Shown: in pieces, positions 20,860 to 28,317 of the stretch | How the letters are laid out: each line of letters opens with the position of its first letter | Numbering within the stretch: the stretch's first letter is position 1 | Assembly (NCBI GenBank): GCA_021817245.1 | Contig: JAKAVQ010000001.1 | Coordinates: 212,265-276,264, forward strand | DNA: 64,000 bases | Reading direction: 5' to 3' | Source of the DNA: Thermoplasmata archaeon | GTDB taxonomy: Archaea > Thermoplasmatota > Thermoplasmata > Lutacidiplasmatales > UBA184 | Program-made: the position numbers and the translations under genes | Notes under the pieces: generated by a model | The model's database searches: none | What the model saw: only the letters and a program-made list of their open reading frames with translations | Told to the model about the DNA's origin: nothing

Positions 20860-21081
20860 CTAGACGGTCTCGATCTCGACGAGCACGCGCAGACCCCGCA
20901 GCTGACGGGTCAGCTCGTCGGAGAGGTCAAGGATCTGCTCCCGGTTCGCCGGACCCGACCAGTCGTACACGAAGTCGTAGTTGCCCTGCGTCGGCGCGAA
21001 ACCGCACAGCCGCAGTCGGTCCGCGACGACCGAGGGCTTCGCGCCCTCGCTCGAGAACGTCACCCGGAGGTACGTCTCCAT
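20860..21081 (-). CDS. small hypothetical protein (73 aa)
   Basis: METYLRVTFSSEGAKPSVVADRLRLCGFAPTQGNYDFVYDWSGPANREQILDLSDELTRQLRGLRVLVEIETV. The upstream 285 codons of the ORF are Arg-rich junk. Confidence 0.45.
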   Translation of the reverse strand: METYLRVTFSSEGAKPSVVADRLRLCGFAPTQGNYDFVYDWSGPANREQILDLSDELTRQLRGLRVLVEIETV

Positions 21082-21920
21082 CGCTGGCGGGACGTCGGCG
21101 GGCGCACAAAGACCTTGCGGCCGAGATCCGGTCGTACGAGGGCGAGGAGCGTCCCTTCCAGGGCGCCGGCCCCCCCGGGGGGAAACCGGCGCGCCGGAAG
21201 CCCGACCCCCGCCGAACGGACCGCGACCGCGCCGCTCCCGCGGGCGGCCCTCGCGACGCCGATCCCGAGATCGGCCCCGTCGATCGCCGATTCGGCGAGA
21301 TGTCGAGCCCGCGCCGTGGTCCGCGCCCGCGATGAAACCCGGGGGGACCGCGCGGCTCGCACGCGGGGCGCGGGGAACGCCGCGGCGAGCGCGGCGACGA
21401 TCGCGGGAAGGTCGGCTCCGAGCTCGACCGCGACCCGGATCTCGAGCGGCGCCCGTCGACGTCCCTGGGCATCGATCGTCCCGGCCCGGATCCGGCGGGA
21501 GCTGACGGGCTCCAGGTCGTCGGCGAGGGCGACCGGGACGACCACGAGCGGCAGGCGGGATCGACCGAGACGGCGCCGCTCCGCGTTCACGGCCCGGCCG
21601 CCGGCGACCGTGTCCGCCGAGACGACCAGCGCATCGACCCCGTCCTCGACCGACCGTCCAAAGCGATTCTCGAGGGGGACGAGCCGCCAGCGCCGGGCCG
21701 GGTAGTGCGACCGAAGCCACCGCTCTAGGTTCGCCCGACGTCGTCGGTAAGGCTCGAGCTCGCGCGGGAACGGCTTCGGGTGCTCGGCGAGGTAGGCCTC
21801 GGTGGTGAGCCCGATCGACACCGACCGGCCGACCCGGAACGCCGTGGCGAGCAGGGCCTCGTGACCGACGTGCAGGTGGTCGAAGGTCCCCCCCAGCACG
21901 GCATGCCGGACGCGACCCAC
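21060..21920 (-). CDS. coaD: phosphopantetheine adenylyltransferase, archaeal type (cytidylyltransferase fold), with an unusual ~120-aa C-terminal extension
   Basis: AGGAGG SD then GTG. HAVLGGTFDHLHVGHEALL (H/TxGH nucleotidyltransferase motif). C-terminal …ISRRIRAGTID typical of archaeal PPAT. The frame then stays open ~120 codons further (Ala/Arg-rich); this may be a real extension or GC-driven read-through. Confidence 0.65.
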   Translation of the reverse strand: MGRVRHAVLGGTFDHLHVGHEALLATAFRVGRSVSIGLTTEAYLAEHPKPFPRELEPYRRRRANLERWLRSHYPARRWRLVPLENRFGRSVEDGVDALVVSADTVAGGRAVNAERRRLGRSRLPLVVVPVALADDLEPVSSRRIRAGTIDAQGRRRAPLEIRVAVELGADLPAIVAALAAAFPAPRVRAARSPRVSSRARTTARARHLAESAIDGADLGIGVARAARGSGAVAVRSAGVGLPARRFPPGGAGALEGTLLALVRPDLGRKVFVRPPTSRQRWRRTSG

Positions 21921-21928
21921 GGACCCTC

Positions 21929-22120
21929 CTAGGCAAAGAGCCGGCTCAGGAACGCGATCAGCAGGATGGCGATCGCGCCGTAGAGCAGGTAGGTGTACAT
22001 CCGCCGCGTCGCGATCTGCTGGGCCCGCTTCTCCCGACACGCCCGGCTGCAGGTCTCCTCGTCGACCGCGCAGACCCGTCCGCAGACCCGGCAATGTCGG
22101 TGGTCGGTCTCCGAGGGCAT
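21929..22120 (-). CDS. DUF2116-like small Zn-ribbon membrane protein
   Basis: 63 aa. CRVCGRVCAVDEETCSRAC (C-x2-C…C-x3-C) followed by a single TM helix LLYGAIAILLIAFLSRLF. Confidence 0.55.
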   Translation of the reverse strand: MPSETDHRHCRVCGRVCAVDEETCSRACREKRAQQIATRRMYTYLLYGAIAILLIAFLSRLFA

Positions 22121-22176
22121 GGCGGCGGCAGGAAGGGACTCGGCTTATCGTTGCGGGAGCTCGGGCCGCGGGGGGC

Positions 22177-25100
22177 CTAGGTCCGGCGAACGCGGCGACG
22201 CAGATCACGGTCCGACGGATCCGGCCCCAGCGCCGGCGTCGGGTCCATCGGGTTCGGGGGGTCCGATTCGGCAAAGGAGCGGTACGCCGCCGCCGCCCTC
22301 AGCTCCGCGTCGAGCTCGTCGTCGGTCGGGATCGGGGGCGGTGCGGGACGGGAGGGCCGGGCCGCCGGCCGGGGGCCGGCCTTCAGGACATCGTGGGTCT
22401 CTGCCGAGAGCTGCTTCAAGAGGTTCAGCCAGATCCGGCCCTGGTGGGCGATCGTCCCCTCGAGGCGATCGCGCAGGTCGCTCGTCTGCTCGAGGAGCTC
22501 GCCCTCCACGCGGCGGAGCTCACGGACCAGCTCCCGGCGTAGCTCGTTGACGCGCGACTCGGTCTCCTCGGAGGCCGGACCGCGCTTCTCGAGCTCGGCG
22601 ACCTTGAGCCAGGTCTTCCGGACGACGGGGAGGACCCGGTCGCTCAGCACCAGCAGGCGCCGGTCGAGGTCGTCGGCCTCCTGCCGGATCGACCGCTCGA
22701 CCCGCGCGAGGTCGGTCTCGCGCTGCTGCAGCTTCGTCTCGAGCCGCTCGAGCCGAAGGATCGACTCCGCCTGCGCGGCCTTGAGCCGGAGCTCCGCGTC
22801 GGCGAGTCCCGCGGCGACCACCTTCTCCTGGTCGCCCCGGGCCGACTCGAGCGCCCGCGCGACCCGGTCCCTCACCGCGGCATCGAACCGGCTCGAGTCG
22901 ATCGTCTTCGAAAGGGCCTGATCGACGTCGGCCTTGAGCCGCGCGAGCAGCTCGACGTACTTCTCGCGCTCCCGCTCCTGGTTCTCCCTCAGCTTCTGCT
23001 CGAAGAACGCCTGGAGCCGGACCTGGAGGCCCGCGACGGCCGACGAGTTCGCGTCCGCGATCTCCGCGATCCGCGCCTCGCGCTCGGTCTCCGCGCGCTT
23101 CTCGACGTCGTCGATCCGCTCGTCGGCCAGCTGGAGGAAGTGCTCCCGTTGGTCGGCGATCTGCGTGGCGAGACGGCTCTCGAGGTCCTTCGCGCGCCCC
23201 TCGACCAGGATCGCGACCCGTTGCTCGAGCTCGCGGACCTCCCGGACCCTGTGCTGTTCCGCCGCGTCCGACTGGGACTTGAGCAGCTCCCGAACGCGCG
23301 CCTCGAGCTCCTCCCGGACGGCGGTGACCTGTTCCTTCGATTCCGCCACCTCGAGGTCGAGCTGGGCGACGAGGGCGGCCCGCAGCTCCTCCTCGGATCG
23401 GGCGGACCGTGCCTTGATCTCCTCGAGGTTCTGGCGCAGCTCTTCGCGCAGGCGCTGGGCCCAGAGCTCCCCGGTCGACTGCACCGCCTGCCGGACCTTC
23501 TCCGAAAGGTCGGGAAGGGCGGCGTCCAGCGAGGCGCGCAGCCGCTGCTCAAGGTCGGTGGAGAGCGCGGTGACATCGACGGCCGGCCGGGCCTCGAGCG
23601 GGGCGAGGCGCGCGCCGAGATCGGTGCCGAGTCGAAGGATCCCCTGGGCGGACCGGTCCGAGACCTCGCGGAGGCGCGTCTCCATCGTTCCGAGGAGCTT
23701 CGTTTCGAGCATCGCCGGGTCCGGCGGGGCCGGGGAGCGCTCGAGCGCCGCGACACGAGATTCGAGGAGCCGAAGCGCCTCGCCGTCCGGTTCTCGGGCG
23801 GCCGGCGCCAAGGGGCGCGCGGTAGGAAGACCTGTCACCGGGGGGAACGGGCGGTCCGGCTCGGGGGCCGGCGGGGGTGCCACGGAGGCGAGCCCCGTGG
23901 GGCGGATCTCGGGAGGAGGGGCCGAGGGCCGGATCGACGGATCGTCGCTCACGGAGACGGGCACCGAGGCGGACGGCGGGACCCGTACCTCGGTCGGACG
24001 CTGGAGCCACGGCGGCACCGTCGACGCGACCGGGTCGGAGGGGTCGAGGACCGGTGGGGCGGTCGGAGAGAGACGGCTCTCTTCGAGTCGCGGCAGCAGG
24101 ACCGATGGCTGCGCCTGCACGTACTCGTTCGCGCGCTTCGCGGTCTCGCCGCTCATCGGGACCGAGCGACCCTTCGGGCGGCTCAGGAGGATCGCGGCGG
24201 TCTCCATCGCGGTCGCGATCCGCCACATCTCCTTGCGCCGGTCGCGGCCGCCCTGGCGCTCGGGGTCGTGAAGGTGCGTGACGGAGCGGCCGGACTCGAC
24301 CACGTCGACCCGCCGGGCGATCTCGGCGAGCTTCGATTCGAGCCCGTCCCGGGCGTACTGGAGAACGAGCGGCAGCGACTCCCGGGCGCGAGCGGTGGGC
24401 GGGTGGGTGAGGTCGCGGACGCTGACCGGGGCGAGTTCCCAGGACTGGATCCGCTTGGAGTGCCGGTCCCCCTGAGCCTCCCCCTTCGGCACGCGCATCA
24501 GCGCGAGCGTGAGCGGGATCTGCTCGGTGAACTCGTGGGTGTTGACCTTCGCCTCGGGCAGGAAGTAGGGGAAGACGAGGAACGCGCCGAGGGAGAGCAG
24601 GGAGCCGGGCAGGAGCCGCACCATGTCCTGGACGACCTGGTTCCCCGCCTCCCACTGGTCGGCGGCAACGACGACGACCGGATCGCTCGTCCCCCGATGG
24701 AAGAGGAACCCCTCGCCGACGGCCTGGTAGACCGACGGGTCCGGGTCGACGGTCGGGTGGGTCGGCTGCGCGGGCCCGCCCATCGTCGCGTGGGCCCGCA
24801 GCACCGCAGGTCCGAACTCGCCGGTCGCGAGCAGGTCGGCGGTCGCGAAGACGAGCGTCTTCATGCCGAGCCGGGGACGGTCCTCGGTGGAGAGGAACAT
24901 CCGGCCGACGCACGTGTACCGTCCGTTGGCCGCCGGGTACAGGAACAGGTTGGGGTAGAACGAGAGCGGCTGGGCCGGGTCCGGATCCCAGTAATCGTGG
25001 GTGTCGGCGATGTTGATCGTCAGGTTGCCGACGATCCGGATCGCCTCGAGCGTCTCGCGCCGGCCCGGGAACTCCTCGGGGATGGTCGTGTACCCCGGGC

Positions 25101-25185
25101 TCTCGGCCTCGTTGTCGACCTGGCGGCACCAGACGACCGCGACCGGCGAGAGTCCGGCCGCGACCGGCCCGGATCCGAGCGCCAT
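22177..25185 (-). CDS. 1002-aa protein: novel N-terminal globular domain (~330 aa), Pro-rich linker, ~500-aa coiled coil, acidic C-terminal region
   Basis: Start MALGSGPVAAG at 25183-25185, overlapping the TGA of the upstream GTPase gene (ATGA). The N-domain has an alpha/beta-like pattern (…AVVWCRQVDNEAESPGYTTIPEEFPGRRETLEAIRIVGNLTINIADTHDYWDPD…). The linker is PPxP-rich (residues ~500-600). Then comes a long heptad-rich Glu/Arg/Leu/Ala coiled coil. The 5' 176 codons of ORF 22177..25713 overlap the GTPase gene in another frame and were discarded. Confidence 0.7.
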   Translation of the reverse strand: MALGSGPVAAGLSPVAVVWCRQVDNEAESPGYTTIPEEFPGRRETLEAIRIVGNLTINIADTHDYWDPDPAQPLSFYPNLFLYPAANGRYTCVGRMFLSTEDRPRLGMKTLVFATADLLATGEFGPAVLRAHATMGGPAQPTHPTVDPDPSVYQAVGEGFLFHRGTSDPVVVVAADQWEAGNQVVQDMVRLLPGSLLSLGAFLVFPYFLPEAKVNTHEFTEQIPLTLALMRVPKGEAQGDRHSKRIQSWELAPVSVRDLTHPPTARARESLPLVLQYARDGLESKLAEIARRVDVVESGRSVTHLHDPERQGGRDRRKEMWRIATAMETAAILLSRPKGRSVPMSGETAKRANEYVQAQPSVLLPRLEESRLSPTAPPVLDPSDPVASTVPPWLQRPTEVRVPPSASVPVSVSDDPSIRPSAPPPEIRPTGLASVAPPPAPEPDRPFPPVTGLPTARPLAPAAREPDGEALRLLESRVAALERSPAPPDPAMLETKLLGTMETRLREVSDRSAQGILRLGTDLGARLAPLEARPAVDVTALSTDLEQRLRASLDAALPDLSEKVRQAVQSTGELWAQRLREELRQNLEEIKARSARSEEELRAALVAQLDLEVAESKEQVTAVREELEARVRELLKSQSDAAEQHRVREVRELEQRVAILVEGRAKDLESRLATQIADQREHFLQLADERIDDVEKRAETEREARIAEIADANSSAVAGLQVRLQAFFEQKLRENQEREREKYVELLARLKADVDQALSKTIDSSRFDAAVRDRVARALESARGDQEKVVAAGLADAELRLKAAQAESILRLERLETKLQQRETDLARVERSIRQEADDLDRRLLVLSDRVLPVVRKTWLKVAELEKRGPASEETESRVNELRRELVRELRRVEGELLEQTSDLRDRLEGTIAHQGRIWLNLLKQLSAETHDVLKAGPRPAARPSRPAPPPIPTDDELDAELRAAAAYRSFAESDPPNPMDPTPALGPDPSDRDLRRRVRRT

Positions 25186-26357
25186 CAGCTCCCCTTGGTC
25201 GCGCGGCGCTCGAGCACCCGCTCGCAGGCGCGGGCGAGGGGGAGGGTCGTGTTGACCATCACCGGTACCCCCATCGTGGGGGTTCCGACGTTCGGCGACT
25301 CCTCGCCGGTCTCCCCGACGAACATCGGATGGCCCTCCCCGGTCGAGACGGCGCTCGACACGAGGAAGACGTCCTCGCGGACGGATAGGCCACGACCGTC
25401 CTGGGCGACGAGGATCGTCCCCATCCCGGCACCGTCCCGACGGAGGAGGAACTCGACCGGATCGAACGCGCTGTGGTACGTCCGGTCGCGCACCGACTGC
25501 TCGACCTCGGAGTAGAAGTCCTTGAGCTTGTCTGCCTTCGAGATCGCGATCACGAGCGGGAGGTTGCGGCTGCGGACATAGCGGAAGACGCCGCGCGCGA
25601 GGTTGACCTGCTGGGCCTGGTCGCGGAGCGATGGGAGCGCCGGTGAGAGGAGCAGGATGACGGCGTCGGCCCCCTGGACGAACCGTCCCAGCAGGGTGAG
25701 ACCCCGACGCCACAGGTCGCGCCGGTCCGGGCGCCAGGAATCGAAGTGCGGGATCACGCGGCAGGTCTTCTCGCTGACCTCGCCCTCGGGGGAATCGATC
25801 CAGAGCCGGTCGTAGGTGAAGTAATCCGCGATGATCCCGCCGGCCTCGTCGATCGTGCGGAGCTCCATCGGGCGGGACGCCGCTTCGCCGTTCGGCGCCC
25901 CGTAGCGGAAGCGCATCGTCATCTCGACGAACTGGTTGAACTTCGTCGGCAGCGGATACTTCGTCAAGACGCCCTGATCTTCGCGTCCCGCCGCAAGCTC
26001 CACCCAGAGCTTCCGCCGGTCCTCCATCGGACGATTCACGTAGTACCGGGTCGTCGTCTCGAGGCTTCCCTCGGGGTCCGTGGGGTCGGTCGTCTCGTAC
26101 GTCGTCTCCTCGAGGGCGACGTCGTTCTCGAGCTCCCCGTAGAGCGGGAGCGTCCCGTTCTCCGGGCGGGTCGGCACGTAGAGGATCGGCAGGTTGAGGC
26201 CGAAGTGGCCCGAGAGGAAGCGGAAGTAGGTCGTCTTGCCGGACGCGGGGATCCCGACCACGGCGATGCGGGCCGTGTCGAACGACGGCTTCGACTCCCG
26301 TTCGCGTTTGGACCCGGCTCCCCGGCGGGTGCGCGTCGTGACCTTGACCTCGGGCAT
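25185..26357 (-). CDS. divergent Arf/Sar/SRbeta-like small GTPase with insertions and a C-terminal extension (390 aa)
   Basis: G1 VVGIPASGKTTYF (cf. Arf GLDxAGKTT), G3 TIDEAGG (DxxG), G4 ISKADKL ([NT]KxD-like), G5 VSSAVSTG (SAx). There is an ~80-aa insert between G1 and G3, and a ~100-aa Gly/Val-rich tail. Confidence 0.7.
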   Translation of the reverse strand: MPEVKVTTRTRRGAGSKRERESKPSFDTARIAVVGIPASGKTTYFRFLSGHFGLNLPILYVPTRPENGTLPLYGELENDVALEETTYETTDPTDPEGSLETTTRYYVNRPMEDRRKLWVELAAGREDQGVLTKYPLPTKFNQFVEMTMRFRYGAPNGEAASRPMELRTIDEAGGIIADYFTYDRLWIDSPEGEVSEKTCRVIPHFDSWRPDRRDLWRRGLTLLGRFVQGADAVILLLSPALPSLRDQAQQVNLARGVFRYVRSRNLPLVIAISKADKLKDFYSEVEQSVRDRTYHSAFDPVEFLLRRDGAGMGTILVAQDGRGLSVREDVFLVSSAVSTGEGHPMFVGETGEESPNVGTPTMGVPVMVNTTLPLARACERVLERRATKGS

Positions 26358-26376: not shown

Positions 26377-27879
26377 TCACCGCATCTCCGCGAGGCATAT
26401 CTCGATGAAGTCGAGCGCGCCCTCGACGGCGGGCCCGCCGGTCGAGAGCTCGAGGCGCGCGTCCTGCAGGAGGCCGAAGACCTCCTCGACGGCCGACTCG
26501 TGCTTCAGTGCGGCGTCCTGGAGATCGCCCTCCCCGGCGAGGCGGGTGAGCTGGTACGTTCCCCGCAGATCGAGCAGCTTGGCGAAGAGGTCCATGAGTT
26601 GCGTCCGCGCCCCGGCGTTCCCGTTCGCGAGCGCATGCTCGGTCGAGTCGATGAAGCGCACCAGCGTCTCGGTCTCCTTGTCGTTCTGCATCCGGGCCTG
26701 GAGCATCGCGAGCCGGCGGAGGACCGCGCCCTGCGACGGTGACGGGAGCTTCTCCGCTTCGGTCCACGCCTGGAGCAGCGCCCGTGCCGCCTCGACGACG
26801 GCATGGCGGGCGTACTGCACCCGGGCCTCCCAGTACAGTCGTGTCACCGCCGGGAGCACCAGTTGGGCTTTCGCGATGCGGGAGAGCGCAAGGTCGTACT
26901 CCCCCTGGAGGTACGCCTCGACGATCTCGCCGAGCGGACCGTACCGTTCCTTGAGGTACGCGGGAGGGCCGGCCGCGCTCGCGAGCACGCCGACCTCGAG
27001 GTCGGGCGCCTCCGTGTACGCGTTCACGCCGTTCGCCCGGGCCGCGACCTGCGCGCTGCGGATCCGCGCGACCGTCGCGTGCTGCTGCGGCTCTTTCAGC
27101 GCGCGGGCGGCGTTCGCGGCATGCCGAGCGAGCTCTTCGGGATGCATCTCTTCGAGTGCAAGGTCGCTGTCGTACGAGACGTCGATGAACGCATGGACCA
27201 TCTGGGTGAAGAGCGCGGTCCCCGTGGTCACCTCTTGGAATCCGAACGGCGCCGGCAGCCCGAGCGCCTGGGCGCGCGCGGTGAGCTGATCGATCAGCTG
27301 GTTCATCCGGCCGGCGTCGACGCCCTTGTCCCGCTCCGTCCCGTTCCCGATGCCGATCAGGCGCAGCGAGAGCCGGGAGTTCGCGGGGAGCAGGTACGGG
27401 ACGAGATCGACCTTTCCCTCGGGCAACGCGGCCCCGGGCGAAGCCCGGACATCGAAGCGGCCCGAGGCGTTGTCCCATCCGTCCGTCACGAGCACGAGGT
27501 TCCCGCGCACGCCGTCCGTGCCCTGGCGCAACAGGTCGGCGCCGGTCGCGATCGCGTCCCAGATGGCGGAGCGGCCGCTCGGCGTCAGGAGCGAGATGAG
27601 GTTCTCGATGTAGGGGAGGTTCTCCTTGTGGATCTCCCCGAGCGGTACGGGGACCCGGACCACTTCCGTGAACGTCACGAGACCGAAGAGCGCCCCCGAG
27701 TTGGCGGCCTCCTCGAGGATGCGAAAGACGGCGGTCCGGGCGACCTCGACCTTCTGGCGCTCCGGCCGGCTCGTGTCGGGATCCGGTAGCGGCGCGAGCA
27801 TGCTCTTCGAAAGGTCGAGCAGGAGCACATGGCGCTCGCGGGCAGCGGCCGGTACCGAAGCAGGTGCGTCGTTCAACAT
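26377..27879 (-). CDS. von Willebrand factor A (vWA) domain protein with MIDAS motif and C-terminal alpha-helical domain
   Basis: HVLLLDLSKSM (DxSxS), …SGRSAIWDAIATGADLL…, NLVLVTDGWDNAS (T…D of MIDAS). ~300-aa helical C-terminal half. Lies 19 nt upstream of the GTPase gene on the same strand. Confidence 0.8.
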   Translation of the reverse strand: MLNDAPASVPAAARERHVLLLDLSKSMLAPLPDPDTSRPERQKVEVARTAVFRILEEAANSGALFGLVTFTEVVRVPVPLGEIHKENLPYIENLISLLTPSGRSAIWDAIATGADLLRQGTDGVRGNLVLVTDGWDNASGRFDVRASPGAALPEGKVDLVPYLLPANSRLSLRLIGIGNGTERDKGVDAGRMNQLIDQLTARAQALGLPAPFGFQEVTTGTALFTQMVHAFIDVSYDSDLALEEMHPEELARHAANAARALKEPQQHATVARIRSAQVAARANGVNAYTEAPDLEVGVLASAAGPPAYLKERYGPLGEIVEAYLQGEYDLALSRIAKAQLVLPAVTRLYWEARVQYARHAVVEAARALLQAWTEAEKLPSPSQGAVLRRLAMLQARMQNDKETETLVRFIDSTEHALANGNAGARTQLMDLFAKLLDLRGTYQLTRLAGEGDLQDAALKHESAVEEVFGLLQDARLELSTGGPAVEGALDFIEICLAEMR

Positions 27880-28057
27880 CGGATGGTTGCAGGGAATCGG
27901 GAGGACGTCACTGGTTTCCTAGAGCCCCACGGTTCCCCGGTCCGCTCTGCCCATGTGCACGCCGTATTTACCTCGGAGAAGGTATTTGTGGCTTCCGACG
28001 GTTATACGCCGCGGAGGCCCGAAAGGACGCCAAATCCGTTCCGGCGCGGCTCGGGTA

Positions 28058-28068
28058 ACCTTATAGTC
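28058..28068 (+). promoter_or_regulatory. TATA-like box (CCTTATAGTC) ~27 nt upstream of the S17e ATG; leaderless-type promoter
   Basis: AT-rich hexamer in otherwise ~70% GC DNA at archaeal TATA spacing from the start codon; no SD. Confidence 0.4.
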
Positions 28069-28092
28069 CGGACTCGAAGTGGCCCCGCCCGC

Positions 28093-28317
28093 ATGGGCAA
28101 CATCCGCCAGACGTACATCAAGCGCGTCGCGATCGAGCTGATCCGTCACTATCCCGAATCGTTCGGCGGGGACTTCGCCCAGAACAAGCAGAAGGTCCTC
28201 GAGCTGACCGACCTCGGCGTGTCCGTCGACGGGAAGACGCACGTCACCCACAAGAAGCTCGCGAACCGGATCGCCGGCTATGCGACCCGGTACATGAAGC
28301 GCAAGCGCGGCACCTAG
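28093..28317 (+). CDS. rps17e: 30S ribosomal protein S17e
   Basis: MGNIRQTYIKRVAIELIRHYPESFGGDFAQNKQKVLELTDLGVSVDGKTHVTHKKLANRIAGYATRYMKRKRGT. The 5' part of ORF 27829..28317 is non-coding. Confidence 0.9.
   Translation: MGNIRQTYIKRVAIELIRHYPESFGGDFAQNKQKVLELTDLGVSVDGKTHVTHKKLANRIAGYATRYMKRKRGT

What the first reader, a model, noticed from the sequence alone, without database searches (positions are those of the whole stretch)
22177..25185. Giant protein: unassigned 330-aa N-domain, PPxP linker, ~500-aa coiled coil – tether or cytoskeletal candidate
The N-terminal domain has a mixed alpha/beta signature (…IRIVGNLTINIADTHDYWDPD…, …LLSLGAFLVFPYFLPEAKVNTHEF…) that I cannot place in any family from sequence. 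It is followed by a Pro-rich spacer and one of the longest uninterrupted coiled-coil regions in the window (heptad E/R/L/A). There is no Walker motif, so it is not SMC/Rad50. Being coupled to a GTPase suggests a GTPase-recruited tether or scaffold.
Basis: partly seen in the sequence, partly recalled or inferred. Interest (0 to 1): 0.6.

Follow-up and report, generated by a model that had tools for sequence, protein, structure and literature searches.

The report
GTPase-coupled rod protein in Thermoplasmata
This 1002-residue archaeal protein, with an unclassified globular head, a proline-rich spacer and a long 11-residue-periodic helical rod, is always encoded with an orphan GTPase and a metal-binding vWA protein, so it probably belongs to an undescribed GTP-switched scaffold system, but its function is untested.

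Summary
The gene is real and the coordinates are exact: minus strand 25185..22177, 1002 aa. Its ATG overlaps the TGA of an upstream GTPase gene.

**Confirmed**
- The roughly 350-aa N-domain has no family assignment.
- A spacer with 26% proline follows it.
- Then comes a helical region of about 440 aa.
- There is no Walker motif.

**Corrected**
- The rod is not heptad-based. Its hydrophobic period is 3.72 residues, the hendecad pattern, in 54 family members.
A MIDAS-intact vWA protein precedes the GTPase.

**Distribution**
- The order vWA, GTPase, rod holds in all 86 related loci that include upstream sequence.
- 146 GTDB species genomes encode a relative. All loci shown but one mislabelled record are named Thermoplasmata or a parent taxon.
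- The locus sits among housekeeping genes.

**Fold**
- A confident AlphaFold model shows three subdomains: a longin/PAS-like sandwich, a P-loop-less Rossmann/AAA+-like domain, and a helical bundle.
- No solved structure matches convincingly.
- A DENN-like reading is a lead only.

**Interpretation**
The best reading is an obligate partner (regulator or effector) of an orphan GTPase that acts as a GTP-controlled scaffold or tether. The closest described theme is the vWA/FtsZl1/GTPase and DO-GTPase–GAP1 operons. Membership of either family was tested and not met. Interest is moderate.

The parts
26377..27879 (-). vWA protein (500 aa), the first gene of the triad. It has an N-terminal vWA domain with an intact MIDAS motif (D22-x-S24-x-S26, then TDGxxN) and a C-terminal region of about 300 aa with no family assignment.
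   Evidence: Pfam VWA_2 matches at E 1.3e-8. The C-terminal 307 aa have no Pfam hit. A homologue sits upstream of the GTPase in every locus with enough sequence, at about 60-80% identity. The MIDAS pattern was found in 71 loci and TDGxxN in 74 of 86. The MIDAS residues were read directly from the translation.
25185..26357 (-). Orphan P-loop GTPase (390 aa). Motifs: G1 GIPASGKTT (aa 35-43), G3/Walker B DEAGG (aa 170-174, Glu after the Asp and no catalytic Gln), G4 SKAD (aa 273-276), G5 SSA (aa 334-336). An insert of about 120 aa lies between G1 and G3.
   Evidence: Alignment A3 shows all the motifs invariant. Pfam, NCBIfam and a PDB profile match only the P-loop. The search returned 354 homologues; the 120 listed are 83-100% identical, and those carrying a name are Thermoplasmata. 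DEAGG and SKAD each occur in 82 of 86 loci. A 19-nt gap with a GGAGG sequence separates it from the vWA stop.
22177..25185 (-). The rod protein gene of the finding (1002 aa plus stop).
   Evidence: Translation. ATG/TGA overlap with the GTPase gene. 34 homologues in the first search. 65 representative clusters among 1.84 billion proteins. 146 GTDB species genomes. Complete ORFs have a median length of 1020 aa.
24781..25146 (-). Head subdomain 1 (aa 14-135), a beta-beta-alpha-beta-beta-beta-alpha-alpha sandwich of longin/PAS-like order. It carries most of the invariant residues: WCRQVDNEAESP, DTHDYWDPDP and GRMFLSTEDRPRLGMKT.
   Evidence: Secondary-structure order from the AlphaFold model. Invariant columns in alignment A1. 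Conservation of 0.85-0.94. Only weak Foldseek hits to longin and PAS domains, at E 0.19-0.57.
24406..24738 (-). Head subdomain 2 (aa 150-260), a four-strand alpha/beta Rossmann/AAA+-like domain without a P-loop or Walker B.
   Evidence: Models (pLDDT 88.2 for aa 140-365). Best Foldseek hits are weak matches to AAA+ modules: BchI at E 0.016, RFC, ORC and Rif2. No Walker patterns.
24115..24369 (-). Head subdomain 3 (aa 273-357), a bundle of four helices in the lid/dDENN-like position.
   Evidence: Models. Invariant residues D294, G313, R317, E319 and R322.
23710..24105 (-). Pro-rich, predicted disordered spacer (aa 361-492, 25.8% Pro). It contains conserved short motifs PPWLQR (about aa 391-396) and VPVSVSDDPS (about aa 408-417).
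   Evidence: Composition. pLDDT below 50 from aa 362. Motif conservation. Length varies from 70 to 256 aa across the family.
22381..23709 (-). Alpha-helical rod (aa 493-935) with hendecad-type hydrophobic periodicity. Conserved blocks lie at aa 601-625 and 718-755.
   Evidence: Spectral peak at 3.70-3.75 residues. Family peak of 3.72 in 54 proteins. Autocorrelation at lags 4, 8, 11, 15, 22 and 26. Conservation blocks.
22396..22674 (-). Conserved C-terminal helical module (about aa 838-930): DLDRRLLVLSDRVLPVVRKTWLKVAELEK ... QGRIWLNLLKQLS. It is present in both the long and the short (555-690 aa) forms of the family.
   Evidence: Alignment A1, columns 700-830. Profile positions 460-618 are matched only by members or fragments of this family. 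tblastn gives about 40-70% identity.
22180..22380 (-). C-terminal tail (aa 936-1002). It is Pro-rich and carries the conserved motif DPPNP[MIL]DP (aa 975-982, nt 22240-22263) and a basic end, RRRVRRT.
   Evidence: Tails of 21 family members were listed and compared. The short-form clade lacks this tail.
21929..22120 (-). DUF2116 (63 aa), a treble-clef zinc ribbon with a C-terminal hydrophobic helix, 56 nt downstream. It is a possible membrane anchor or fourth component, but it is not strictly linked.
   Evidence: Pfam DUF2116 at E 5e-11. ORF listed. It lies 9-83 nt downstream in about 43 of 62 loci and in all four divergent clades, but it is lost together with the downstream flank in about 9 loci.

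Best explanation
The gene encodes the large subunit of a three-protein, vertically inherited module found in Thermoplasmata. The gene order is MIDAS-vWA protein, then an orphan GTPase, then the rod protein.

**Shown**
- The three genes form a tight operon: a 19-nt gap, then a 1-nt stop/start overlap.
- The gene order is invariant in related genomes.
- The GTPase has all G motifs but lacks the catalytic Gln (DEAGG).
- The rod protein has a compact three-subdomain head, a disordered Pro-rich spacer, a helical rod of about 440 aa with 11-residue periodicity, a conserved C-terminal helical module, and a tail with DPPNPxDP and poly-Arg.

**Inferred**
- The head docks on the GTPase through the invariant polar loops of subdomain 1 (aa 21-30, 61-70, 99-110). 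It either supplies missing catalytic residues (candidate arginine fingers R21, R103, R105) or reads out the nucleotide state.
- Translational coupling would keep the two proteins near-stoichiometric.
- If the rod is one continuous helix or coiled coil, it is about 65 nm long (my arithmetic: 443 aa x 0.15 nm). It would be a non-canonical coiled coil, straight or right-handed, or a helical bundle. It would act as a structural element whose assembly or attachment is switched by GTP.
- The vWA MIDAS site would clamp an acidic motif of the complex, such as SDDPS in the spacer or DPPNPMDP in the tail.
- The basic tail and/or the neighbouring tail-anchored DUF2116 protein would provide membrane attachment.

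The net function I commit to is a GTP-controlled scaffold or tether at the cell membrane. It would be a housekeeping cell-biological system, not a defence system.
For: **Operon and linkage**
- Operon anatomy and the codon overlap.
- The vWA-GTPase-rod order holds in all loci with upstream sequence and in four divergent clades at 35-47% identity.
- The stop/start overlap occurs in 69 of 75 loci.

**Housekeeping character**
- 146 GTDB species genomes encode a relative, and the loci shown are Thermoplasmata.
- The locus lies in a syntenic core region: ribosomal proteins S19e, L31e and S17e and eIF6 on one side; DUF2116, a CTP-transferase, DUF5611 and an M50 peptidase on the other.
- The triad persists where the downstream flank has changed.
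- The GTPase is about 83% identical across loci, against about 63% for the neighbouring M50 peptidase.
- There are no PADLOC defence hits apart from weak P-loop and coiled-coil matches.

**Protein features**
- GTPase motifs, including DEAGG without a Gln.
- MIDAS intact.
- Confident head model with three subdomains.
- The invariant polar residues concentrate in subdomain 1 and partly fall in the lowest-pLDDT loops. That pattern suits an interface.
- Rod periodicity is significant and conserved across the family.
- The rod contains conserved sequence blocks.

**Precedent**
- Makarova and Koonin 2010 (PMC2875224) predicted a membrane-remodelling role for operons that combine a MIDAS-vWA protein, a diverged GTPase and a protein built as N-terminal NTPase-like domain, coiled coil and helical C-terminal domain.
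Against: - No direct evidence exists for physical interaction, GAP or GEF activity, oligomerisation or membrane association. No complex prediction could be run.
- The head has no convincing structural relative. All Foldseek TM-scores are at or below 0.3, so its role as a GTPase regulator rests on context only.
- The rod protein has no transmembrane segment (maximum 19-aa hydropathy 1.79, inside the head).
- DUF2116 is not strictly linked to the triad.
- The short-form clade lacks the DPPNPxDP and poly-Arg tail, so tail-based attachment cannot be universal.
- The rod's helicity was not modelled.
- An 11-residue periodicity also suits surface-binding amphipathic helices, so it does not by itself indicate a coiled coil.
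Confidence: 0.45

Rival explanations
1. The head is a true, very remote homologue of the eukaryotic and Asgard longin-DENN-dDENN module (the C9orf72, SMCR8 and folliculin type). It would act as the GAP or GEF of the adjacent GTPase. The protein would then be a non-Asgard archaeal DENN-type regulator fused to a rod.
For: - The secondary-structure order fits the tripartite DENN layout described in PMC3521125: beta-beta-alpha-beta-beta-beta-alpha-alpha, then an alpha/beta domain, then a helical bundle.
- The only Foldseek PDB hit below E 1e-3 is a chain of the C9orf72:SMCR8:WDR41-ARF1 complex (7mge_C, E 5.3e-4).
- The Lst4 longin, the Lokiarchaeota Roadblock-Longin protein and TagF appear among the weak hits.
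- The gene is adjacent to a GTPase, as in the Asgard DENN operons.
- The invariant, G/P-containing loop before strand 2 occupies the position of the 'GP motif' of GAP longins (PMC12290439). In this family the order is P-G, not G-P.
Against: - The 7mge_C match has a TM-score of 0.14 and an rmsd of 20 Å.
- I could not establish which protein chain C is. It may be the WDR41 beta-propeller.
- The better model of aa 140-365 (pLDDT 88) retrieves no DENN structure among its top 50 hits, only weak AAA+-like ones.
- No DENN, uDENN, folliculin or C9orf72 Pfam model matches at E<=10.
- hhalign of the family against human C9orf72 gave a probability of 0.2%.
- The GTPase is not of the Rab, Arf or Rag type.
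Confidence: 0.12
2. The triad is an archaeal offshoot of the 'GTPase-centric' conflict (defence) systems of Kaur et al. 2020. In those systems a DO-GTPase is paired with a downstream GAP1 protein of three globular domains, and some versions add vWA and coiled-coil components. The rod would be the sensor or effector scaffold of an anti-invader system.
For: - DO-GTPases are defined by a conserved Glu in Walker B, and GAP1 by three globular domains encoded just downstream of the GTPase (PMC7159879).
- Here the GTPase has an invariant DEAGG, and its downstream partner has a three-subdomain head.
- Some of those systems include vWA proteins and coiled-coil fusions.
- Pfam DO-GTPase2 appears as a weak hit.
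Against: - The DO-GTPase2 hit covers only 14 P-loop residues, at E 0.07-0.25.
- No GAP1-N, GAP1-M or GAP1-C hit appears at E<=10.
- There is no variable effector; the components are constant.
- The triad occupies a fixed position in the core chromosome next to ribosomal genes, across clades only 35-45% identical.
- The GTPase is under very strong purifying selection.
- PADLOC found nothing specific.
- Those systems are described as mobile and mostly bacterial.
Confidence: 0.08
3. Subdomains 2 and 3 of the head are a degenerate AAA+ module (a pseudo-ATPase) related to MoxR or BchI. It would pair with the vWA protein as in MoxR-vWA or Mg-chelatase systems. The complex would be an assembly or maturation chaperone, with the GTPase replacing the lost ATPase activity.
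For: - The top Foldseek hits for aa 140-365 are consistently AAA+ modules. The best is the Mg-chelatase ATPase BchI (6l8d, E 0.016), followed by RFC/Rad17, ORC/Cdc6, Rif2, p97 and NtrX.
- AAA+ proteins recur in the full-head search and in the viral-library search.
- The element order alpha0-beta-alpha-beta-alpha-beta-alpha-beta followed by a four-helix lid fits AAA+.
- A MIDAS-vWA partner is the classical MoxR/BchI companion.
Against: - All these E-values are at or above 0.016 and all TM-scores at or below 0.3.
- Walker A and B, sensor and arginine-finger patterns are absent.
- No AAA or MoxR Pfam hit appears at E<=10.
- The DENN core also has a P-loop-like topology, so these hits do not discriminate between the two readings.
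- The idea does not explain the 440-aa rod.
Confidence: 0.15
4. The helical region is not a coiled-coil tether. It would be a set of amphipathic 11-mer helices that lie on a lipid or other surface, in the manner of apolipoproteins, perilipins or LEA proteins. The protein would be a GTPase-regulated membrane coat or stabiliser in a cell type without a rigid wall.
For: - The hydrophobic period of 3.72 and the lags of 11 and 22 are what 11-mer surface-binding amphipathic helices show (the comparison with those protein classes comes from my own knowledge).
- A very weak profile hit to apolipophorin-III appeared at E 3.9.
- The protein has a basic C-terminus.
- A tail-anchored membrane protein is encoded next door.
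Against: - The sequence blocks inside the rod are conserved. That suggests specific packing or specific partners, not generic amphipathicity.
- The apolipophorin hit is not significant.
- No lipid-binding domain was found.
- The hydrophobic fraction was not analysed for face width.
Confidence: 0.15
5. The protein is a very divergent member of the FtsZl1 (Tubulin_2) family, whose members have the same overall layout and the same operon partners.
For: [quoted passage not shown] They are encoded with MIDAS-vWA proteins and diverged GTPases, and the family includes archaeal examples (PMC2875224).
Against: - The GGGTG[ST]G signature is absent from the sequence.
- No Tubulin or Tubulin_2 Pfam hit appears at E<=10.
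- No FtsZ or tubulin structure is among the Foldseek hits, although the PDB holds many.
- The domain order (beta-sandwich first, Rossmann-like second) is the reverse of FtsZ.
Confidence: 0.03

Closest known systems
vWA/FtsZl1/GTPase operons (Makarova and Koonin 2010, Biol Direct 5:33; PMC2875224), predicted membrane-remodelling systems
   Same: The operon combines a MIDAS-intact vWA protein, a diverged 'hypothetical' P-loop GTPase and a large protein built as an N-terminal globular alpha/beta domain, an extended coiled-coil-like region and a helical C-terminal domain. Archaeal examples exist.
   Different: The head here is not FtsZ/tubulin-like: it has no signature motif, no Pfam Tubulin_2 hit and no structural hit. 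The GTPase G4 motif is SKAD, not TxKD. The rod is hendecad-type. The system is fixed in a core chromosomal position in one archaeal lineage.
DO-GTPase-GAP1 'GTPase-centric' systems (Kaur, Burroughs, Iyer, Aravind 2020, eLife 9:e52696; PMC7159879)
   Same: The GTPase is of TRAFAC type with a Glu in Walker B (here DEAGG). The partner is encoded immediately downstream and has three globular domains. Some versions include vWA and coiled-coil components.
   Different: Pfam DO-GTPase1/2 and GAP1-N/M/C models do not match beyond the P-loop. There is no variable effector, no mobility and no second GTPase copy. The context is housekeeping.
Tripartite DENN module (longin-DENN-dDENN) of eukaryotes and Asgard archaea, including the C9orf72-SMCR8 and folliculin GAP complexes
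   Same: The three-part order of secondary-structure elements matches. The gene is encoded next to a GTPase, as in the Asgard DENN operons. There are weak Foldseek hits to members of this structural neighbourhood.
   Different: There is no sequence or profile similarity. The isolated C-terminal two-thirds of the head retrieves no DENN structure. The partner GTPase is not of the Rab, Arf or Rag type. The lineage is Thermoplasmata, not Asgard.
Long rod-like GTPase effectors and tethers of eukaryotes (golgins, EEA1). This is a functional analogy drawn from my own knowledge.
   Same: A GTPase-binding globular end is joined to a very long helical rod and a second attachment site at the far end.
   Different: Those rods are heptad coiled coils. 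They bind Rab or Arl GTPases and are not operon-encoded. There is no homology.

Membership tests
SMC/Rad50-type coiled-coil ATPases | Walker A and Walker B motifs at the ends of the coiled coil | tested here: not met
   A regex search found no [AG]x4GK[ST] and no hhhhD[DE] in the 1002 aa. There are no SMC or Rad50 family hits.
Canonical (heptad) coiled-coil proteins | Hydrophobic periodicity of 3.5 residues, with autocorrelation at lags 7, 14, 21 and 28 | tested here: not met
   Power at period 3.5 equals that of shuffles. The peak is at 3.70-3.75 and at 3.72 for the family. Autocorrelation at lags 7, 14, 21 and 28 is near zero or negative, while lags 11, 22 and 26 give 0.17.
Hendecad/pentadecad-type helical rods (a structural class, not a homology family) | Hydrophobic periodicity of about 3.67-3.75 residues, with lags 4, 8, 11, 15 and 22 | tested here: met
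   Oligomeric state and supercoil handedness were not tested.
DENN module (longin-DENN-dDENN) | Match to the DENN, uDENN, dDENN, folliculin or C9orf72 sequence models | tested here: not met
   No such Pfam family matches at E<=10, either in 20 members or in 7 isolated heads. hhalign against human C9orf72 gave a probability of 0.2%.
DENN module (longin-DENN-dDENN) | N-terminal longin fold (beta-beta-alpha-beta-beta-beta-alpha-alpha sandwich) | tested here: inconclusive
   The secondary-structure order of aa 16-135 fits. Foldseek hits to longin domains (4zy8, 8yqg) have E 0.2-0.6 and TM 0.25-0.34. A PAS-B domain scores as well or better.
DENN module (longin-DENN-dDENN) | Central DENN alpha/beta domain plus dDENN that superposes on solved DENN structures | tested here: not met
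FtsZl1 / Tubulin_2 | N-terminal FtsZ/tubulin GTPase domain with the GGGTG[ST]G loop | tested here: not met
   The motif is absent from the sequence. There is no Tubulin or Tubulin_2 hit and no FtsZ or tubulin among the fold hits.
FtsZl1 / Tubulin_2 | Operon with a MIDAS-vWA protein and a diverged P-loop GTPase; a coiled-coil region followed by a helical C-terminal domain | tested here: met
   and 11/84, compared with the description in PMC2875224.
DO-GTPase-GAP1 systems | GTPase matches the DO-GTPase1/2 models | tested here: not met
   PF19993 matches only profile positions 3-16 (the P-loop), at E 0.07-0.25, in 3 of 11 members.
DO-GTPase-GAP1 systems | Conserved glutamate in the Walker B motif of the GTPase | tested here: met
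   D170-E171-A-G-G is invariant in alignment A3 and present in 82 of 86 loci. The feature is as worded in PMC7159879. I could not check that the position is equivalent in an alignment.
DO-GTPase-GAP1 systems | Downstream partner with GAP1-N, GAP1-M and GAP1-C domains | tested here: not met
   No GAP1 Pfam model matches at E<=10. The only resemblance is architectural: three subdomains and a downstream position.
DO-GTPase-GAP1 systems | Mobile neighbourhood with variable effector components | tested here: not met
   The triad is constant and has no effector domain. It sits in the same core chromosomal context in divergent clades.
MoxR/BchI AAA+ - vWA pairs | AAA+ ATPase with Walker A and B, encoded with a vWA protein | tested here: not met
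   There are no Walker motifs and no AAA or MoxR Pfam hit. The fold resemblance is weak, with BchI at E 0.016. The vWA partner is present.
Ras-superfamily small GTPases (Rab/Arf/Rag) as the partner | Match to the Ras, Arf or Gtr1_RagA models; DxxGQ motif | tested here: not met
   Only P-loop-level hits were found. G3 reads DEAGG.

The most novel reading that the evidence does not exclude
The head is a prokaryotic relative, outside Asgard, of the longin-plus-P-loop-like GTPase-regulator modules (DENN or GAP1 type). It would be fused to a hendecad rod of about 65 nm. Together with an orphan, extremely conserved GTPase and a MIDAS-vWA clamp, it would form a previously unrecognised GTP-switched cytoskeletal or membrane-tethering machine that is core to a whole order-level lineage of soil Thermoplasmata. 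That would be an archaeal analogue of the eukaryotic arrangement of a GTPase, its regulator and a long tether.
Probability: 0.12. Interest if true: 0.85.

Novelty: new variant of a known kind. Interest (0 to 1): 0.55.

Why it matters
Two of the three proteins, the GTPase and the rod protein, belong to no described family. Even so, they are single-copy, syntenic and strongly conserved in about 146 Thermoplasmata species genomes, mostly from soil and peat metagenomes.

The GTPase is conserved at a level usually seen in cytoskeletal or translational proteins.

If the module is a GTP-switched scaffold or tether, it would add a new system to the short list of archaeal cell-biological machines. It would also give an experimentally tractable example of the vWA-GTPase-coiled-coil theme, which was predicted from genomics in 2010 and has never been characterised.

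If the head proves related to longin/DENN or GAP1 modules, that type of GTPase regulator would extend beyond eukaryotes and Asgard archaea.

The hendecad rod would also be one of the longer natural examples of non-heptad periodicity.

Tried and rejected
**Sequence-family searches with no result**
- Pfam, NCBIfam and PADLOC on the whole protein gave nothing specific.
- Pfam at E<=10 on 20 members and on 7 isolated heads gave only scattered coiled-coil noise.
- A PDB sequence profile search found nothing significant.
- An exhaustive HMMER profile search of 1.84 billion representatives found only the family itself, 65 hits. The 'C-terminal only' hits were contig-broken fragments of the same family.

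**Structure searches**
- Foldseek of the head against PDB gave one hit below 1e-3, 7mge_C, with TM 0.14. I tried to identify chain C by searching recalled C9orf72, SMCR8 and WDR41 sequences and by reading papers that cite 7MGE. This failed, so I discount the hit.
- A second model restricted to aa 140-365 gave no DENN hits, only weak AAA+ ones.
- The BFVD viral library gave nothing significant.
- hhalign against a single C9orf72 sequence gave no signal.

**Other dead ends**
- The supplement of PMC12290439, wanted for its Asgard GAP-longin sequences, is not held.
- A literature search for TagF plus DENN returned only irrelevant papers.
- The DO-GTPase2 Pfam hit proved to cover the P-loop only.
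- P0087, a distant head-like fragment, sits in a conjugative-element-like context without a GTPase and was uninformative.
- P0017 and P0034 looked like GTPase-rod fusions but are frameshifted gene calls.
- No offline HMM libraries exist for a local HHsearch.
- I ran no further search on a C9orf72 family profile. I judged the chance of a decisive result to be low.

Full report
**1. The observation**

The window has about 71% G+C. It carries archaeal ribosomal-protein genes next to the locus.

The finding's coordinates are exact. The minus-strand ORF 25185..22177 translates into 1002 residues. The mechanical ORF list extends it upstream to a GTG at 25713. Two facts place the real start at 25185:
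- The ATG at 25185-25183 shares its A with the TGA (25187-25185) of the preceding ORF.
- All homologues begin 10-40 residues before the first conserved motif.

The protein has no Pfam or NCBIfam match. Its only PADLOC match is a weak ZorA hit over the helical region. A regex search finds no Walker A or Walker B pattern. No 19-residue window is hydrophobic enough for a membrane span outside the folded head.

- a globular part, aa 1-360;
- a spacer, aa 361-492, with 25.8% proline;
- a region, aa 493-935, with 1.1% proline, 38% charged residues and 15% leucine;
- a proline-rich tail of 67 residues.

**2. The 'coiled coil' is periodic, but not heptad**

- Fourier analysis of the hydrophobic pattern shows no excess at 3.5 residues.
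- A strong peak lies at 3.70-3.75 residues: normalised power about 12, against a 99th-percentile shuffle value of 7.7.
- I extracted 63 complete family ORFs from related loci. Of these, 54 long-form proteins could be analysed.
- The incoherently averaged spectrum of those 54 proteins peaks at 3.72, with power 5.3 against 1.0 for shuffles. In 47 of the 54 the best period is 3.7.
- Hydrophobic autocorrelation is positive at lags 4, 8, 11, 15, 18, 22, 26 and 30. It is near zero or negative at 7, 14, 21 and 28.

This is the a-d-h spacing of hendecad or pentadecad repeats. The region is therefore not a compositional artefact, and it is not a canonical left-handed coiled coil. It fits a straight or right-handed coiled coil or bundle. 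It also fits surface-binding 11-mer amphipathic helices.

The rod contains conserved sequence blocks, which a mere spacer would not: aa 601-625, aa 718-755 and the terminal module at about aa 838-930.

I could not model the rod. Both structure-prediction jobs went to the head.

**3. The family and its context**

*Size and spread of the family*
- A search with aa 1-400 found 34 proteins. All are unnamed or 'hypothetical', and every one with a source name comes from a Thermoplasmata metagenome-assembled genome.
- An exhaustive HMMER profile search of 1.84 billion cluster representatives found only 65 proteins at E<=1e-3. About 40 of them carry the head. The rest are contig-broken C-terminal fragments of the same family.
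- Both the head and the C-terminal module are therefore specific to this family.
- In GTDB species representatives, 146 genomes encode a relative. The 80 loci shown are labelled Thermoplasmata, Thermoplasmatota or Methanobacteriota, apart from one record mislabelled 'bacterium'. They include Candidatus Lutacidiplasma silvani, and many come from soil or peat projects.

*The triad*
- I ran tblastn with the window's neighbouring proteins against all fetched loci.
- Every locus with upstream sequence has the same order and orientation: vWA protein, then GTPase, then rod protein.
- Typical identities to the window are 83% for the GTPase, 72% for the vWA protein, 69% for the head and 50% for the C-terminal module. 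The neighbouring M50 peptidase is about 63% identical.
- Four divergent clades, whose rod proteins are only 35-47% identical and 555-690 aa long, keep the same triad.
- The rod gene's start overlaps the GTPase stop (TGATG or TAATG) in 69 of 75 evaluable loci. This count includes cases where my script picked the in-frame GTG one codon upstream of the ATG.
- In the window, 19 nt containing a GGAGG sequence separate the vWA stop from the GTPase ATG.

*Flanking genes*
- On one side lie S19e, L31e, eIF6 and S17e.
- On the other side lie DUF2116, a CTP-transferase-like gene, DUF5611 and an M50 peptidase.
- In some genomes the downstream flank is replaced while the triad stays.
- This is the signature of a vertically inherited core module, not of a mobile defence island. 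PADLOC also finds nothing specific.

**4. The partners**

*The GTPase (390 aa)*
- Its motifs are invariant: G1 GIPASGKTT, G3 DEAGG, G4 SKAD and G5 SSA.
- A highly conserved insert of about 120 residues lies between G1 and G3.
- G3 lacks the glutamine that follows DxxG in Ras-like GTPases, and it has a Glu right after the Walker B Asp.
- Pfam, NCBIfam and a profile search of PDB sequences match only the P-loop.
- Its conservation is striking. The 120 listed clusters are 83-100% identical.

*The vWA protein (500 aa)*
- It has a VWA_2 domain (E 1.3e-8).
- Its MIDAS motif is intact: D22-x-S24-x-S26, then TDGxxN. I read this from the translation, and the pattern is conserved across loci.
- Its C-terminal region of about 300 residues has no family assignment.

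*DUF2116*
- A 63-aa ORF lies 56 nt downstream of the rod gene, at 22120..21929.
- It is a DUF2116 treble-clef zinc ribbon with a C-terminal hydrophobic helix.
- It holds this position in all four divergent clades and in about 43 of 62 loci. It disappears together with the downstream flank in about nine.
- I therefore list it as a possible component, not a proven one.

**5. The head**

*The models*
- AlphaFold2 with a 20-sequence alignment gave a confident model of aa 1-400 (mean pLDDT 80.5, pTM 0.82). The chain is disordered from aa 362.
- A second model of aa 140-365 reached pLDDT 88.2.

*Three subdomains*
- aa 16-135: beta-beta-alpha-(beta)-beta-beta-beta-alpha-alpha, the order seen in longin and PAS-like sandwiches.
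- aa 150-260: four beta-alpha units, a Rossmann or P-loop-NTPase-like sheet without any P-loop.
- aa 273-357: four helices.

*Invariant residues*
- Across members down to 35% identity, the invariant residues cluster in subdomain 1: W19-P30 (RQVDNEAESP), N58-P70 (DTHDYWDPDP) and G94-T110 (GRMFLSTEDRPRLGMKT).
- Two of these stretches coincide with the lowest-confidence loops of the model: pLDDT 59 for aa 21-30 and 65 for aa 61-70.
- That is what I would expect of an exposed interface or active site, and not of a structural core.

*Comparison with solved structures*
- Foldseek of the full head against PDB gave one hit below 1e-3. It is chain C of the C9orf72:SMCR8:WDR41-ARF1 complex (E 5.3e-4), with a TM-score of 0.14 and an rmsd of 20 Å.
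- Weaker hits included TagF, the Lst4 longin domain, a Lokiarchaeota Roadblock-Longin protein and a PAS-B domain.
- This, together with the topology, suggested the tripartite DENN module (longin-DENN-dDENN) as described in PMC3521125. DENN proteins are encoded next to GTPases in Asgard archaea.

*Why I do not accept the DENN reading*
- I could not determine whether 7mge_C is C9orf72, SMCR8 or the WDR41 propeller. All three have the same deposited sequence in 6lt0, 6v4u and 7mge. The modelled length of 365 residues would fit WDR41.
- The better model of aa 140-365 retrieves no DENN structure. It retrieves only weak AAA+-like modules: BchI at E 0.016, RFC, ORC and Rif2.
- AAA+ proteins recur in the viral library, again not significantly.
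- No DENN-clan, GAP1, tubulin or AAA Pfam model matches at E<=10.
- hhalign against C9orf72 gave nothing.

My conclusion is that the head is a well-folded, three-part module with no demonstrable relative. 'Longin/PAS-like plus P-loop-less NTPase-like plus lid' describes it. It does not classify it.

**6. Mechanism**

*Shown*
- A tight, translationally coupled, invariant three-gene unit.
- A complete GTPase that lacks an intrinsic catalytic glutamine.
- A MIDAS-competent vWA protein.
- A rod protein with a conserved head, a flexible spacer carrying two conserved short motifs (PPW and VPVSVSDDPS), a hendecad rod, a conserved terminal module and, in the long-form clade, a tail with DPPNP[MIL]DP and a poly-Arg end.

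*Inferred*
- The head binds the GTPase through the invariant loops of subdomain 1. It either completes the GTPase's catalytic site (candidates R21, R103, R105) or senses its nucleotide state.
- The rod is about 65 nm long if it is continuous. It is the structural output, and its assembly or anchoring is switched by GTP.
- The vWA MIDAS site clamps an acidic motif of the complex.
- The basic tail and/or DUF2116 provide membrane contact.

I put the probability that the protein is an obligate partner of the GTPase within this module at about 0.85. The scaffold or tether role is at about 0.45, and GAP or GEF activity of the head at about 0.3.

**7. Comparison with what is known**

*vWA/FtsZl1 operons.* The closest described theme is the set of vWA/FtsZl1 operons of Makarova and Koonin (PMC2875224).
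- The authors predicted a role in membrane remodelling.
- The head here is not FtsZ-like: the signature is absent, and there is no Pfam or fold hit.

*GTPase-centric systems.* Kaur et al. (PMC7159879) reinterpreted related neighbourhoods as GTPase-centric conflict systems. These consist of a DO-GTPase, defined by a Glu in Walker B, and a downstream GAP1 protein with three globular domains.
- The present pair shares the Walker-B Glu, the gene order and the three-subdomain layout.
- The DO-GTPase2 model matches only 14 P-loop residues.
- No GAP1 model matches.
- The system has no variable effector and is not mobile.

I therefore file the locus as a new variant of the vWA, GTPase and long-helical-protein kind, built from two orphan families. 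I do not file it as a member of FtsZl1, DO-GTPase/GAP1 or DENN.

**8. Verdict**

The GTPase-linked scaffold or tether idea survives as the best-supported inference, but it is untested.

Interest is moderate (0.55). This is a widespread, strongly conserved and completely uncharacterised GTPase module in a poorly known archaeal lineage, with an unusual hendecad rod. There is no evidence yet of a mechanism that would surprise a specialist.

The most novel reading not excluded is a non-Asgard longin/DENN- or GAP1-like regulator at the heart of a new archaeal GTP-switched tethering machine. I give it a probability of about 0.12.

Noticed in passing
window 21929-22120 (-): A 63-aa ORF encodes a DUF2116 treble-clef zinc ribbon with a C-terminal hydrophobic helix, so it looks like a tail-anchored membrane protein. 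It lies 56 nt downstream of the rod gene. It holds the same position in four divergent clades, but it is lost together with the downstream flank in about 9 loci.
   Followed up: partly
window 26377-27300 (-), C-terminal 307 aa of the vWA protein: This apparently all-helical region has no Pfam match. It is a third unassigned domain in the operon.
   Followed up: partly
window 25185-26357 (-); loci L001-L086: The GTPase is about 83% identical across loci in which the neighbouring housekeeping genes are only 50-63% identical. This is unusually strong constraint. The insert of about 120 aa between G1 and G3 weakly hits Pfam DUF6971 in one distant homologue (L085, E 0.004).
   Followed up: partly
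L087:8001-8549 (protein P0087): A 182-aa distant relative of the head (E 2e-6 to the family profile, lacking the STEDRPR motif) lies among TrbL, TraC/VirB4-like and DDE-transposase genes, with no GTPase beside it. It may be a degraded copy on a conjugative element.
   Followed up: partly
proteins P0017, P0034 (homologous loci): These gene calls join the C-terminus of the GTPase to the head of the rod protein. The junction reads like a frameshifted translation of the GTPase C-terminus, so they are probably assembly or gene-calling artefacts caused by the overlapping stop and start, not true fusions.
   Followed up: partly
window 22381-23709 (-), rod region; family-wide: Besides the 3.72-residue peak, the rod shows raised power at period 2.0 (2.14 against 0.92 in shuffles). 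This is unexplained.
   Followed up: no
window 21060-21800 (-) and homologous loci L084, L086: The gene after DUF2116 is a CTP_transf_like cytidylyltransferase. In some relatives it is fused to, or replaced by, an NTPase_I-T domain. The mechanical ORF in the window (21060..22274) runs upstream across DUF2116 and into the 3' end of the rod gene, so its true start must lie further downstream.
   Followed up: no
window 27880-28110: The region between the vWA gene and the divergent S17e gene holds the only AT-rich boxes nearby (ctataag, gtaaatac). These are candidate archaeal TATA elements for the operon and for S17e. They were not analysed further, because the promoter tool covers sigma-70 promoters only.
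   Followed up: no
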